Sequence record: NC_048818.1
Strand: one strand, 5' to 3'
DNA length: 64,000 nucleotides
DNA from: Escherichia phage VEc33
The position numbers were made by a program, and so were the translations under genes. How positions within the stretch are numbered: position 1 is the stretch's first letter; each line of letters starts with the position of its first letter. The notes below the pieces were generated by a model. That model worked only from the letters and a program-made list of their open reading frames with translations. It was not told the origin of the DNA and did no database searches. This document shows, one piece after another, positions 3,598 through 10,091 of this stretch.

Positions 3598-3676
3598 TGG
3601 CAAACCTACTAGGACTCGAACCTAGACCGTACGGTTTTAGAGACCGACATGCTGTCCAGTAACACTCTAGGAATGC
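3598..3676 (-). ncRNA. tRNA-like element with anticodon-type stem-loop CGGU-CUCUAAA-ACCG (anticodon position CUA)
   Basis: T-arm CTAGG-TTCGAGT-CCTAG and 3' CCA present, but no canonical acceptor pairing found by hand; either pseudo-tRNA or non-canonical tRNA. Confidence 0.35.
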
Positions 3677-5023: not shown

Positions 5024-5101
5024 TTTGGTGGCTCCCCGAGGATTCGAACCTACGTACCTTCCGGTTATGAGCCGGGTGCTCATACCATATGAGCTTGAGA
5101 A
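5024..5101 (-). tRNA. tRNA-Met-type (anticodon CAU; loop CUCAUAA)
   Basis: RC: acceptor GGTTCTC/GGGAGCC (two G-U pairs), D-arm GCTC-ATATGGTAT-GAGC, anticodon stem CCGG/CCGG, TTCGAAT T-loop, CCA. Confidence 0.6.
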
Positions 5102-5107
5102 CCAAAA

Positions 5108-7675: not shown

Positions 7676-7716
7676 TAAATACAGAAAAGCCCGCGCTCTC
7701 GGAGGAAACGCGGGCT
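7676..7716 (-). terminator. rho-independent terminator after the SPFH gene
   Basis: hairpin AAGCCCGCG...CGCGGGCTT followed by U-run on minus strand; convergent with 7634-7672. Confidence 0.6.
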
Positions 7717-7740
7717 TGGTTCGAAGATTACGTGTAACTA

Positions 7741-8720: not shown

Positions 8721-8795
8721 ATTGGCCGAGGTGACAGGATTCGAACCTGCATAAAGGAATTTAGAAGACTCCTGCCTATCCCTTAGACTACACCC
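8721..8795 (-). tRNA. tRNA-Arg (anticodon UCU)
   Basis: RC: acceptor CGGGGTG/CACCTCG, anticodon stem GGAGT/ATTCC with loop CTTCTAA, T-arm GCAGG-TTCGAAT-CCTGT, CCA. Confidence 0.6.
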
Positions 8796-9299
8796 CGTTT
8801 AAGTATTTTTAAGAACTCTCGTAAAAACTCTTAAAAATACAGACGATACCGGGAGAGTCATAAGTCTCACTCATTAAGTATTTCAAGACAAAATACGGTA
8901 ACGTCTATTATTTTCCAGTTTAAGTCAGGGTGACTTAGTGGTTATGTCCTGCGGTATATTGAGGACTCGGTTAGGCTTGGGGTCATGACTTCCCGCCTTT
9001 TGCTGCTACTCAACAGGAGTTATCGCGAATTACCTGTGCTATTGTGCACCATTAGTGACATCTCTCATGTCAGCATTTCCCACTTTGTGGATAGCTTGAA
9101 AAACTACTCCGATATGGAGAAAGAACTTCACTACCCTAGAATACCTTCTAAAGTTCTTCTTTAGCCTGGACATAGTTAAATCGTAATAAAACTATTCAGC
9201 AGACTGGTTGGTTAGTCTGGAACCAACTACCGCGTGGTTTAGGCAGTGCGCAACTAACCTCGGAAGCTTTTACGTTAAAAGCATCAGTTATCCAGTTCT

Positions 9300-9372
9300 T
9301 ACCGACCGTAGGATTCGAACCTACATCTTCCACCAGTTACGGCTTGATAATACCAATTATACTAGGACGGCA
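9300..9372 (-). ncRNA. tRNA-like element (T-arm GTAGG-TTCGAAT-CCTAC; anticodon undetermined, no CCA)
   Basis: clear T-arm on minus strand; acceptor and anticodon stems could not be folded cleanly by hand. Confidence 0.4.
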
Positions 9373-9610
9373 GTGTTACTACATAAGTGATTTCCACACC
9401 CCACTATTTATAAATTAGAGAAGAGTTTAGGGGAGAGGTTTCAGACGCCTCATTTTACACGTTCTAGCCACTAACCGGGATTGCCGCCCCCCTGTGTACT
9501 AGTTTTACAACTAACCCACCGACTCTATTCAACGAATCTTAGTGCTCGACGCATCTTACATTAAGACAAGTTCAGCGTAATCGGCTCGCTGTTCCCTAAT
9601 TTATGAATAT

Positions 9611-9639
9611 ATTATACAGAATTTAAAGGCATTTAGCAA
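9611..9639 (-). promoter_or_regulatory. sigma70-type early promoter driving the ORF-free RNA region, tRNAs and the SPFH gene
   Basis: attata 9611-9616 and tagcaa 9634-9639 on plus strand. Confidence 0.5.
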
Positions 9640-9647
9640 ATAAATTT

Positions 9648-10091
9648 TTAATTAAATTCGCCAGCAATCTGAGCAGCAGTACCACCATCATAACGCCCAG
9701 AAAATTCTTCCTTAATCGCTTTCATCAGCATACCTTTTGTAATTCCAGGGTTTAGCTTAACTAATTCTGCAAAGTATTTACGAATCTCAGTATCAGATAA
9801 CTGAGGAGGCAGATACTCCTGCAACCACTTAGTTAGAATGTATTCATACTGAGCGGACTGCAAGCTATAACTATCAAGATCTTGACCATGAAGTTTAGCT
9901 TTCATCTGGTTAATGCTTTTTAGTTGAGCTTTGAGATAAGACACAAATTGTTCAGAAGTGATGAAATCTTTATCAATACGCTGAAGATCCCCGATTATGG
10001 TCTGATAGCTTTTAGCGACTTCTTTATCAGAACCATTAAACTTAGAATCCTGCAAAGCTCTACGCAAAACATCTAAAATATTCTCTTCCAT
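9648..10091 (-). CDS. GatB/YqeY-domain protein
   Basis: 147 aa; C-terminal LNPGITKGMLMKAIKEEFSGRYDGGTAAQIAGEF typical of YqeY. Confidence 0.6.
   Translation of the reverse strand: MEENILDVLRRALQDSKFNGSDKEVAKSYQTIIGDLQRIDKDFITSEQFVSYLKAQLKSINQMKAKLHGQDLDSYSLQSAQYEYILTKWLQEYLPPQLSDTEIRKYFAELVKLNPGITKGMLMKAIKEEFSGRYDGGTAAQIAGEFN

What the first reader, a model, noticed from the sequence alone, without database searches (positions are those of the whole stretch)
8796..9640. About 840-nt ORF-free transcribed region containing a tRNA-like element
A promoter of the conserved early type at 9611-9639 fires into roughly 840 nt with no plausible ORF on either strand; the only track ORF (9208-9390, plus strand) overlaps a tRNA-like element and has no RBS. 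The region contains the tRNA-like element at 9300-9372 and several GC-rich stem-forming segments (for example around 8930-9010), and ends at tRNA-Arg (8721-8795). In a compact phage genome this much non-coding sequence is likely to be functional RNA, such as additional degenerate tRNAs, stable small RNAs or processing substrates.
Basis: seen in the sequence. Interest (0 to 1): 0.42.

Follow-up and report, generated by a model that had tools for sequence, protein, structure and literature searches.

The report
RNAX: structured stable RNA of T5-like phages
This gene-free stretch of a T5-like phage is the already annotated "RNAX" stable RNA, and comparison with related phages shows it is a large, intricately folded non-coding RNA that carries a tRNA-shaped domain and still has no known function.

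Summary
A strong early-type promoter (9639-9611, minus strand) reads into about 807 nt with no conserved ORF. This stretch contains one tRNA-like element (9371-9300) and ends at tRNA-Arg (8797-8723).

The region is not new. GenBank records of phage 5, BF23, DT57C and DT571/2 annotate it as "rnaX, stable RNA with unknown functions". The viable T5 st0 deletion removes it.

My added result is comparative. Homologues of 0.64-1.5 kb sit at the same place in Tequintavirus, Epseptimavirus, Klebsiella Sugarlandvirus and Pectobacterium Hongcheonvirus. They share eight invariant motifs in fixed order, separated by swappable helices.

Two formal covariation tests are positive: 14 pairs changed on both sides in each, against 8.0 and 6.5 in shuffles, 0/500. 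G·U outnumbers A·C by 97:1 and 62:5, so the transcribed strand is the one under selection.

The tRNA-like fold caps a conserved 14-bp long-range helix, and some lineages replace it with a non-tRNA element. No Rfam family other than tRNA matches.

Most likely RNAX is a trans-acting, accessory structured RNA released by RNase P cleavage at tRNA-Arg. Its function is unknown.

The parts
9606..9650 (-). Early-type sigma-70 promoter: A/T-rich upstream stretch 9650-9641, -35 TTGCTA 9639-9634, -10 TATAAT 9616-9611, discriminator ATATT 9610-9606
   Evidence: 10/12 matches, 17-nt spacer. Invariant in homologues. Annotated promoter P16-17 in AJ604531. The ATATT rule for T5 early promoters is from PMC7472727.
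8798..9604 (-). RNAX transcript body, about 807 nt. The 5' end is inferred at about 9604 (GenBank homologues start the feature at about 9598). The 3' end is inferred at the RNase P site of tRNA-Arg.
   Evidence: 96% identical to annotated rnaX of phage 5. No minus-strand terminator before 7717-7687. No conserved ORF.
9592..9604 (-). P1 5' strand (AUAAAUUAGGGAA). It pairs with 9422-9410, so the very 5' end of the RNA is base-paired.
   Evidence: The MFE fold pairs nt 1-13 with nt 183-195. Lineage L019/L021 has compensatory GAUG/CAUC in place of GAGA/UCUC, and in T5/DT57C P1 is a simple hairpin. No formal covariation test was run.
9410..9422 (-). P1 3' strand (UUCUCUAAUUUAU)
9423..9591 (-). Optional 5' domain ('block B') inserted in the loop of P1. 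It includes the invariant hairpin CAGCG...CGCUG at 9591-9573. It is absent from T5 and DT57C, variable or enlarged in other phages, and replaced by an HNH endonuclease gene in some.
   Evidence: Length classes and block map. Its structure was not formally tested.
9394..9406 (-). Near-invariant motif UAGUGGGGUGUGG just 5' of P2
   Evidence: Invariant columns in A1. Used as the search motif that found 83 loci.
9372..9391 (-). P2 5' strand (AUCACUUAUGUAGU...CU), the long-range helix that carries the tRNA-like domain
   Evidence: RNAalifold. 12 pairs, 99.6% paired, 6 pairs changed on both sides. Kept in 15 sequence types including DU_PP_V and types whose tip is replaced.
9300..9371 (-). tRNA-like domain. 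Acceptor 9371-9365/9307-9301 with G1·U72 and U5xU68. D arm 9362-9359/9350-9347. Short 3-4 bp 'anticodon' stem 9344-9341/9334-9331 with a 6-nt loop GUAACU. Canonical T arm 9324-9320/9312-9308.
   Evidence: Rfam tRNA 35.5 bits, with the anticodon arm skipped by the model. Not called by ARAGORN. Compensatory changes in acceptor, anticodon and T stems. Variant or replaced tips in other phages.
9283..9299 (-). P2 3' strand (AG.AACUGGAUAACUGAU)
9266..9282 (-). Hairpin M3 (GCUUUUA-ACG-UAAAAGC)
   Evidence: 6 pairs, 96% paired, 2 pairs changed on both sides; variants are GCUUAU/AUAAGC, GCUUC/GAAGC and GGUUC/GAACC.
9200..9262 (-). Region with the invariant motif AAACCACGCGG (9240-9230). It holds helix GUUGGUU 9227-9221 x AACCAAC 9213-9207 and two candidate pseudoknots: UUGCG 9253-9249 x CGCGG 9234-9230, and CAGAC 9219-9215 x GUCUG 9204-9200.
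   Evidence: Judged by eye from 9 distinct sequences. GUUGAUU/AAUCAAC and UUUCG/CGAGG are compensatory variants. These are candidates only and were not formally tested.
9107..9158 (-). Three-way module: AAGAACUU 9158-9151 x AAGUUCUU 9128-9121; hairpin UAGAA 9150-9146 x UUCUA 9141-9137; hairpin CUCC 9119-9116 x GGAG 9110-9107
   Evidence: The MFE fold. The small hairpin covaries (UAGGC/GCCUA, UAGUC/GACUA) in Klebsiella and Enterobacter phage homologues.
9001..9090 (-). Central conserved region: CCAC/GUGG hairpin and invariant AGUGGGAAA (9084-9076); hairpin UGACAU 9072-9067 x AUGUCA 9061-9056; long-range UGGUGC 9051-9046 x GCAGCA 9006-9001; hairpin ACAGG 9037-9033 x CCUGU 9017-9013
   Evidence: RNAalifold on 14 sequences gives 16 pairs, 4 of them changed on both sides, 3 of which lie in the 9072-9056 hairpin. 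The rest is sequence-invariant, so it is uninformative.
8915..8998 (-). 3' core. Helices 8998-8995 x 8976-8973 and 8994-8992 x 8982-8980 present the invariant palindromic loop AAGUCAUGA (8991-8983). Variable hairpin 8966-8962 x 8950-8946. Invariant AUAACCAC. Helices 8941-8939 x 8917-8915 and 8936-8931 x 8927-8922.
   Evidence: The hairpin 8966-8946 has all 5 pairs changed on both sides.
8840..8907 (-). Three-way junction. Closing helix 8907-8902 x 8845-8840 and 8900-8897 x 8850-8847. Hairpin 8896-8890 x 8884-8878. Conserved junction CUUAAU 8878-8873. Second hairpin about 8872-8853.
   Evidence: 16 distinct variants of at least 4 sequence types fold independently into the same junction with different closing-helix sequences. 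The second hairpin has 3 pairs changed on both sides.
8803..8840 (-). Terminal 16-bp hairpin, the most conserved piece of the RNA. It is followed by the 5-nt tail UUAAA (8802-8798).
   Evidence: 16 pairs, 100% paired, 3 pairs changed on both sides. It matches at 90-100% identity in 448 phage records including Pectobacterium phages.
8723..8797 (-). tRNA-Arg(UCU), co-transcribed. Its 5' processing site would define the RNAX 3' end.
   Evidence: ARAGORN and Rfam at 49.3 bits. A tRNA-Arg follows RNAX in the Tequintavirus, Epseptimavirus, Enterobacter KKP_3711, Klebsiella FZ41 and DU_PP_V homologues whose 3' flank was annotated or scanned.

Best explanation
The region is the gene for RNAX, a non-coding RNA of T5-like phages that is already annotated but uncharacterised.

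Shown: it is non-coding, and it is a conserved, elaborately folded RNA read from the minus strand. It has a core of invariant motifs joined by helices that keep their pairing while their sequences, lengths and even identities change. The tRNA-like element is one such peripheral domain, sitting on a 14-bp long-range helix.

Inferred: host RNA polymerase starts at the early promoter near 9604. It transcribes RNAX, tRNA-Arg and the SPFH gene as one unit up to the terminator at 7717-7687. RNase P cleavage at the 5' end of tRNA-Arg releases RNAX. The base-paired 5' end (P1) and the 16-bp 3' hairpin with its 5-nt tail protect it from RNase E and 3' exonucleases, so it accumulates as a 'stable RNA'.

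Inferred with low confidence: it then acts in trans as a folded RNA particle or RNA-protein scaffold with an accessory role. That role is dispensable on laboratory hosts and is plausibly tied to the tRNA island it belongs to, for example handling of phage tRNAs or host defences that target tRNA.
For: Identity with annotated rnaX.

Non-coding: ORFs reach at most 60 aa, none is preserved across genera, and there are no Pfam hits.

Homologues at the same locus in four genera or subfamilies, ORF-free over 1.03 and 1.47 kb.

Eight motifs in fixed order with variable spacers.

Covariation. A1: 40 pairs, 92.5% paired against 30-44% when slid; 14 pairs changed on both sides against 8.0±1.5 in shuffles, 0/500. 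A2: 41 pairs, 96% paired against 26-54% when slid; 14 against 6.5±1.9, 0/500.

The same junction and the same P2+tip+M3 architecture appear in independent folds of divergent variants.

Strand: G·U to A·C is 97:1 and 62:5.

Transcription unit: one promoter and no internal terminator, with the early-type discriminator.

Linkage to a following tRNA-Arg is conserved even where the tRNA-Arg sequence differs.

Dispensable: the T5 st0 deletion spans the region.
Against: No expression or end-mapping data were available to me. 'Stable RNA' rests on a GenBank note, and the 5' and 3' ends are inferred.

The MFE z-score is only -1.63.

Overall identity to Stitch (70.4%) is no higher than at fourfold-degenerate sites of the neighbouring gene (74.5%, n=47). 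Constraint is therefore confined to motifs and pairing.

The sequences are related phages and few independent lineages contribute. The tested structures were partly derived from the same alignments, which inflates the slid-control contrast.

In many Epseptimavirus a 170-aa gene lies between the terminal hairpin and tRNA-Arg. There, RNase P cannot set the RNAX 3' end.

Nothing here identifies a function.
Confidence: 0.7

Rival explanations
1. Cis-acting leader. The structure exists to control or assist maturation and expression of the downstream tRNA-Arg and the SPFH gene, for example by guiding RNase P or RNase E or by buffering the transcript. It is then degraded, and RNAX has no trans function.
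For: RNAX is always upstream of a tRNA-Arg and has no terminator of its own. The only promoter for tRNA-Arg in this stretch is the RNAX promoter.
Against: Eight hundred to 1500 nt with at least 10 conserved helices is far more than known tRNA leaders need. Other tRNAs of the same island lack such leaders. GenBank annotators call it a stable RNA. In some phages a protein gene separates it from tRNA-Arg without loss of the RNA.
Confidence: 0.12
2. tRNA mimic or decoy. The tRNA-shaped domain is the active part. It would titrate a host tRNA-binding or tRNA-cleaving factor such as a defence nuclease, or it would be bound by the phage YqeY-like protein encoded just upstream.
For: The cloverleaf is kept by compensatory changes, with conserved T and D loops. 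T5 tRNAs are known to neutralise the tRNA-targeting defence PARIS (PMC11464382). The upstream gene is YqeY-like (PF09424, 26.3 bits against a cutoff of 27; 1ng6 E=0.03) and is syntenic in Markadamsvirinae and DU_PP_V.
Against: Sepoy, L028 and L042 replace the domain with a 52-nt non-tRNA element, and KFSSM keeps only part of it. The 'anticodon' arm is the least conserved part. The acceptor end is buried in helix P2. YqeY presence does not track the tRNA-like tip: it is present in Sepoy and absent next to RNAX in Klebsiella phages.
Confidence: 0.12
3. Self-assembling RNA particle of the GOLLD/ROOL type. RNAX would multimerise, for example through the invariant palindromic loop AGUCAUGA, into a cage or scaffold in the infected cell.
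For: The genomic setting matches GOLLD and ROOL: phage origin, a tRNA island, and sometimes a tRNA inside the RNA. It shares the conserved core with variable periphery and a size of 0.6-1.5 kb (PMC12286853).
Against: No covariance-model match to GOLLD or ROOL in seven homologues. The palindromic loop never varies, so its pairing cannot be tested. Multimerisation is pure analogy.
Confidence: 0.08
4. Coding or junk. Either the region encodes small proteins (for example the 45-aa ORF 9333-9196 that matches PHROG 19105), or it is decayed remains of tRNA genes and homing-endonuclease genes.
For: PHROG 19105 hit, E=3.7e-38. Some annotation pipelines call short CDSs here. The region is a hotspot for HNH endonuclease insertions.
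Against: The ORF has a GTG start without a Shine-Dalgarno sequence. It lies inside the T arm, P2 and M3, and it is truncated to 21 aa in Stitch. There are no Pfam hits. Proteins from the inserted genes have no tblastn similarity to this region. No further tRNA remnants appear at E<=10. Compensatory changes and the G·U bias cannot be explained by coding or by decay.
Confidence: 0.03

Closest known systems
rnaX / RNAX of phage 5, BF23, DT57C and DT571/2 (GenBank AJ604531, AJ604530, KM979354, NC_047749: 'stable RNA with unknown functions')
   Same: Same locus, between promoter P16-17 and tRNA-Arg. 96% nucleotide identity to phage 5. It is the same gene.
   Different: The window's copy carries the 165-nt 5' domain, which DT57C and T5 lack. 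The public records give only coordinates, with no structure, family or function.
GOLLD and ROOL large ornate RNAs
   Same: Large structured RNAs of phages and prophages, often in tRNA islands. GOLLD sometimes carries a tRNA in a variable region and has a conserved part next to a variable part. Their function is unknown, and ROOL is non-essential (PMC12286853).
   Different: No sequence or covariance-model similarity. The hosts differ: this is a lytic Demerecviridae phage of enterobacteria. Multimer formation is untested. Here the tRNA-like fold is not a real tRNA, and it caps a helix.
MALAT1-mascRNA 3' end formation
   Same: A long non-coding RNA whose 3' end is made by RNase P cutting at a downstream tRNA-shaped element, and which is then protected by a terminal structure. 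An extended acceptor stem formed by leader and trailer is compatible with RNase P processing there (PMC8457004).
   Different: That is a eukaryotic nuclear system with triple-helix protection. Here a genuine tRNA-Arg would supply the cleavage site and a plain 16-bp hairpin the protection. Whether the internal tRNA-like domain is cut at all is unknown.
T4 RNAC and RNAD, and the other T5 misc_RNAs (RNAI, RNAIII, RNA1, RNA2H, RNAIV, rna2)
   Same: Phage stable RNAs of unknown function (PMC9697503). The T5 ones are annotated in the same tRNA region. That the T4 ones lie in the T4 tRNA cluster is from my own knowledge.
   Different: They are much smaller, about 80-170 nt. They show no sequence similarity to RNAX: only promoter repeats matched the T5 st0 tRNA region.
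Canonical tRNA (Rfam RF00005)
   Same: The domain at 9371-9300 passes the Rfam gathering score and has acceptor, D and T arms.
   Different: The anticodon arm is 3-4 bp with a 6-nt loop. U5xU68 and G1·U/A72 are conserved mismatches. No free ends are evident, because the flanks pair as helix P2. ARAGORN rejects it.

Membership tests
RNAX (annotated misc_RNA of T5-like phages) | Lies between early promoter P16-17 and tRNA-Arg, downstream of the ORF076/YqeY-like gene | tested here: met
   Synteny and annotation tables.
RNAX (annotated misc_RNA of T5-like phages) | Sequence homology to the annotated rnaX | tested here: met
   96.2% over 100% of the query to AJ604531, and 95.3% to DT57C apart from the 165-nt indel.
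RNAX (annotated misc_RNA of T5-like phages) | Accumulates as a stable RNA in infected cells | not testable with these tools
   Only the GenBank note supports this. No paper on RNAX was found in the searchable library.
tRNA (RF00005), for 9371-9300 | Score at or above the Rfam gathering threshold | tested here: met
   35.5 bits against 29.
tRNA (RF00005), for 9371-9300 | 5-bp anticodon stem with a 7-nt loop and a readable anticodon | tested here: not met
   The model skips 18 nt here. The supported stem is 3-4 bp with a 6-nt loop GUAACU. ARAGORN makes no call. The arm is enlarged or replaced in relatives.
tRNA (RF00005), for 9371-9300 | Free 5' and 3' ends after processing, with a CCA end | tested here: inconclusive
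   No CCA is encoded. Leader and trailer form the conserved helix P2. Processing itself cannot be tested.
GOLLD (RF01998) / ROOL (RF03087) | Match to the family covariance model | tested here: not met
   No hit at E<=10 in the window region, nor at E<=1 in six homologues.
GOLLD (RF01998) / ROOL (RF03087) | Phage-encoded, next to or inside a tRNA island, longer than 500 nt, multi-helix conserved structure | tested here: met
   The family description is from PMC12286853.
GOLLD (RF01998) / ROOL (RF03087) | Homo-oligomeric cage | not testable with these tools
   Needs native gels or cryo-EM.
tmRNA, bacterial Y RNA (YrlA), RNase P RNA, group I/II introns, HEARO | Match to the family model | tested here: not met
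   ARAGORN finds no tmRNA. No Rfam match other than tRNA.
Protein-coding gene (PHROG 19105) | Open frame conserved in relatives, with a start context | tested here: not met
   The frame is truncated in Stitch, L030 and L026. GTG start without a Shine-Dalgarno sequence. No Pfam hit.

The most novel reading that the evidence does not exclude
RNAX may be the founding member of an unclassified family of large 'ornate' RNAs (0.64-1.5 kb) conserved across Demerecviridae. It would have an invariant core, swappable peripheral domains including a tRNA-shaped one, and candidate pseudoknots. It would act in trans as a folded RNA particle or RNA-protein complex during early infection, making it a third, independent example beside GOLLD and ROOL of a big structured RNA tied to phage tRNA islands. 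Unlike those two, it sits in a classical and genetically tractable model phage.
Probability: 0.35. Interest if true: 0.7.

Novelty: already known. Interest (0 to 1): 0.5.

Why it matters
The gene itself has been in GenBank since about 2004, so the bare finding is a rediscovery.

The character of the RNA does not appear in Rfam 15 or in any paper I could search. It has a conserved core and at least 10 helices kept by compensatory change. Its tRNA-like domain rides on a long helix. Homologues reach from E. coli and Salmonella T5-like phages to Klebsiella and Pectobacterium phages.

Large structured phage RNAs next to tRNA genes (GOLLD, ROOL) are an open problem. Their shapes are known from cryo-EM but their functions are not.

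T5 offers an easy system for this question. Deletion mutants are viable, the promoter is defined, and there is now a growing panel of tRNA-targeting defence systems against which a clean RNAX deletion could be tested.

The analysis also flags PHROG 19105 and several 'hypothetical protein' calls in T5-like genomes as probable mis-annotations inside an RNA gene.

Tried and rejected
1. Decayed homing-endonuclease or inserted-gene remnant. tblastn of the HNH and 170-aa proteins found in relatives gave nothing against this region.

2. More degenerate tRNAs. A permissive Rfam scan found only the two tRNA hits.

3. Known RNA family. Nothing besides tRNA matched in the window or in six homologues.

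4. Parent tRNA of the tRNA-like domain. The best match is 52/72 identities, which is not informative.

5. Homologues in bacterial or archaeal genomes. A core-motif pattern found none. IMG/VR and metagenome scans returned only T5-like contigs.

6. Thermodynamic signal. It is weak, z = -1.63.

7. Literature on RNAX or T5 stable RNAs. No usable paper turned up in the library, and three searches failed on term length.

8. YqeY-RNAX co-occurrence. It does not track the tRNA-like tip.

9. Central-region covariation. It is weak because that region barely varies.

10. Pseudoknots and block B. Only 9 distinct sequences or poorly alignable ones were available, so these remain candidates.

11. A codon comparison of the SPFH gene with Stitch was mis-registered and is discarded.
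Full report
WHAT THE WINDOW IS. The window is a T5-like phage of the genus Tequintavirus. It is 99.7% identical over this region to Salmonella phages S130/S131 and Escherichia phage HdH2. The finding lies in the tRNA gene island, where ARAGORN finds 14 tRNAs, all on the minus strand.

THE OBSERVATION. Reading the minus strand, the layout is as follows.
- The YqeY-like gene ends at 9648.
- A TTGCTA-17-TATAAT promoter follows at 9639-9611. Its ATATT discriminator is the one reported for all T5 early promoters (PMC7472727).
- About 807 nt then follow with no ORF above 60 aa on either strand.
- tRNA-Arg(UCU) sits at 8797-8723.
- The SPFH/band-7 gene follows (Pfam Band_7).
- The next minus-strand terminator is at 7717-7687.

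Rfam's tRNA model scores 9371-9300 at 35.5 bits against a gathering score of 29, but it skips 18 nt where the anticodon arm should be. ARAGORN does not call the element.

ALREADY ANNOTATED. The region is a named gene.
- GenBank AJ604531 (phage 5 tRNA region) annotates a 785-nt misc_RNA 'rnaX: stable RNA with unknown functions'. It lies between 'promoter P16-17' and tRNA-Arg and is 96% identical to the window.
- DT57C, DT571/2 and BF23 carry the same feature.
- T5 record AY587007 marks the tRNA-like element as a pseudo-tRNA.
- The T5 st0 record shows the viable st0 deletion running from just after tRNA-Asp into the YqeY-like gene, which removes RNAX entirely.

I found no paper in the searchable library that describes RNAX.

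NOT CODING, NOT DEBRIS.
- The four longest ORFs have no Pfam hit.
- One of them, 9333-9196, matches PHROG 19105, a 45-aa family of unknown function. It has a GTG start with no ribosome-binding site, lies inside the T arm, P2 and M3, and is cut to 21 aa in phage Stitch. I read that PHROG as a collection of spurious ORF calls.
- No ORF keeps its full length across genera.
- Proteins of genes inserted here in other phages (an HNH endonuclease and a 170-aa protein) have no similarity to the window region.
- A permissive Rfam scan finds no further tRNA remnants.

RELATIVES AND MOSAIC ARCHITECTURE. I collected 99 loci from INPHARED, IMG/VR and metagenomes. The spacer from the YqeY-like gene to tRNA-Arg comes in several length classes:
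- about 850 nt (this window);
- about 835 nt (phage 5);
- about 690 nt (DT57C);
- 776 nt (T5);
- 1056-1527 nt (several Epseptimavirus loci, some with an inserted HNH or 170-aa gene).

Homologous, ORF-free regions also exist in Klebsiella Sugarlandvirus FZ41 (1.47 kb) and Pectobacterium phage DU_PP_V of the Mccorquodalevirinae (1.03 kb).

Six sequence motifs, the terminal-hairpin arm and tRNA-Arg occur in the same order in the types whose loci reach far enough. These are AAACCAYG..., AGUGGGAAA, RAGUCAUGACC, AUAACCAC, AGUCACCYUGAC and AACUGGARRAUA. The spacers between them vary, for example from 145 to 270 nt. This is the pattern of a conserved core with variable peripheral helices.

Overall identity to Stitch is 70.4%. 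That is no higher than the 74.5% identity at fourfold-degenerate sites of the neighbouring gene. Selection therefore acts on motifs and pairing, not on the bulk sequence.

STRUCTURE: THE TRNA-LIKE DOMAIN AND P2. On 23 distinct sequences covering window 9408-9251 (alignment A1), RNAalifold predicts that the flanks of the tRNA-like element pair with each other. For a 40-pair model comprising P2, the cloverleaf and hairpin M3, the counts are as follows:
- 92.5% of cells are paired, against 30-44% when the partners are slid.
- 14 pairs changed on both sides, against 8.0±1.5 in shuffles (0/500) and 0-2 when slid.
- P2 alone is 99.6% paired, with 6 of its 12 pairs changed on both sides.

P2 persists in 15 sequence types, including DU_PP_V, which adds further compensatory pairs. 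It also persists in types where the tip is not tRNA-like.

STRUCTURE: THE 3' END. On 17 sequences covering 8999-8796 (alignment A2), a 41-pair model is 96% paired, against 26-54% when slid. It has 14 pairs changed on both sides, against 6.5±1.9 in shuffles (0/500). The three-way junction before the terminal hairpin folds the same way in 16 distinct variants whose closing helices differ in sequence.

STRUCTURE: THE CENTRE AND THE 5' END. The central region is mostly invariant and so uninformative, but one hairpin there has three compensatory pairs. The 5' end pairs with 9422-9410 to form P1. In T5 and DT57C this is a plain hairpin. In the window, a 165-nt optional domain sits in its loop.

STRAND. 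G·U pairs outnumber A·C by 97:1 in A1 and 62:5 in A2. The constraint is therefore on the minus-strand transcript and not on the DNA.

CAVEATS ON THE STRUCTURE EVIDENCE.
- The MFE z-score is only -1.63.
- The phages are related, so few independent lineages contribute.
- The tested structures were partly derived from the same alignments.
- The two pseudoknots are candidates only.

THE TRNA-LIKE DOMAIN IN DETAIL. Acceptor, T and short 'anticodon' stems all show compensatory changes. Two mismatches are conserved even in DU_PP_V: U5xU68 and G1·U/A72. The anticodon arm is the most variable part:
- 3-4 bp with a GUAACU loop in most;
- an inserted hairpin in some Klebsiella phages and one metagenome contig;
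- a single hairpin replacing the D and anticodon arms in KFSSM;
- the whole domain replaced by a 52-nt non-tRNA element in Sepoy, L028 and L042.

It is therefore a swappable peripheral domain, not the conserved heart of the RNA.

HOW IT PROBABLY WORKS. What is shown is the transcription unit layout and the folded architecture. The rest is inferred. RNAX is made early as the 5' part of the tRNA-Arg precursor and is released by RNase P at 8798/8797. It is stabilised by its paired 5' end and by the 16-bp terminal hairpin. That hairpin is 100% paired, leaves a 5-nt tail, and is the most conserved segment, found in 448 records.

MALAT1-mascRNA is the closest mechanistic precedent for such 3' end formation. 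It also shows that an extended acceptor stem does not exclude RNase P cleavage (PMC8457004). Whether the internal domain is also cut therefore stays open.

FUNCTION. This is unknown.
- The setting resembles GOLLD and ROOL: phage origin, a tRNA island, a tRNA inside a variable region, non-essential (PMC12286853). No model match exists, however.
- The upstream YqeY-like protein, a family related to the tRNA-binding tail of GatB (my own knowledge), is a tempting partner. Its presence does not track the tRNA-like tip.
- T5 tRNAs counter tRNA-targeting defences (PMC11464382). That makes an anti-defence role worth testing, but nothing here shows it.

VERDICT. The entity is already known by name. Its nature as a family-wide, ornate structured RNA appears undescribed, and it is readily testable in T5.

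Noticed in passing
window 3598-3674 (-): A tRNA with a CUA (amber-reading) anticodon, which ARAGORN labels 'tRNA-Pyl' and Rfam scores at 36.9 bits as tRNA. It lies between tRNA-Phe and tRNA-Glu. T5 record AY587007 leaves the corresponding 86-nt gap unannotated. It is possibly a suppressor-type phage tRNA.
   Followed up: no
window 5029-5103 (-): Rfam calls a tRNA here (40.3 bits) that ARAGORN misses. It corresponds to the 'tRNA-Met' next to tRNA-Ser in T5 AY587007.
   Followed up: partly
L007/L017 (phage T5) and L088; equivalent to an insertion near window 8921: T5 and one metagenome contig carry an insertion of about 80 nt in the RNAX 3' core. It is a long hairpin flanked by a 24-nt direct repeat of AAGTCACCTTGACTTAAACTGGAA, and it looks like a duplication-insertion event.
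   Followed up: partly
L054, L055, L030, L095; equivalent to window 9423-9604: In mar003J3, KFSSM and relatives, a 161-aa HNH homing-endonuclease ORF starts about 6 nt after the -10 box of the RNAX promoter, with no Shine-Dalgarno sequence (leaderless-like). It replaces P1 and the 5' domain. A new local hairpin ACUAAC/GUUAGU then precedes the conserved core.
   Followed up: partly
L048, L051, L054, L026, L028, L050; between the equivalents of window 8803 and 8797: A conserved 159-170-aa gene with no Pfam match is inserted exactly between the RNAX terminal hairpin and tRNA-Arg in many Epseptimavirus and in Enterobacter phage KKP_3711.
   Followed up: partly
window 9196-9333 (-): PHROG 19105 (45 aa, unknown function) appears to be built from ORF calls that lie inside the RNAX gene. 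Several T5-like genome records annotate 'hypothetical proteins' here.
   Followed up: yes
window 9648-10091 (-): The gene upstream of RNAX is a borderline YqeY-like protein (PF09424 26.3 bits against a cutoff of 27; PDB 1ng6 E=0.03). Databases label it variously 'tRNA amidotransferase' or 'recombination related exonuclease'. It is syntenic with RNAX in Markadamsvirinae and in DU_PP_V (40% identity).
   Followed up: partly
window 7687-7717: A 12-bp GC-rich hairpin with T runs, equal to the 'bidirectional terminator ter1' of AJ604531. T5 AY587007 places its major single-strand nick 3 (32.6%) next to the corresponding terminators.
   Followed up: no
L006 (T5 st0, AY692264 30287-33086): The T5 tRNA island holds six more annotated misc_RNAs of unknown function (RNAIII, RNAI, RNA1, RNA2H, RNAIV, rna2). 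None resembles RNAX in sequence. They might repay the same comparative treatment.
   Followed up: no
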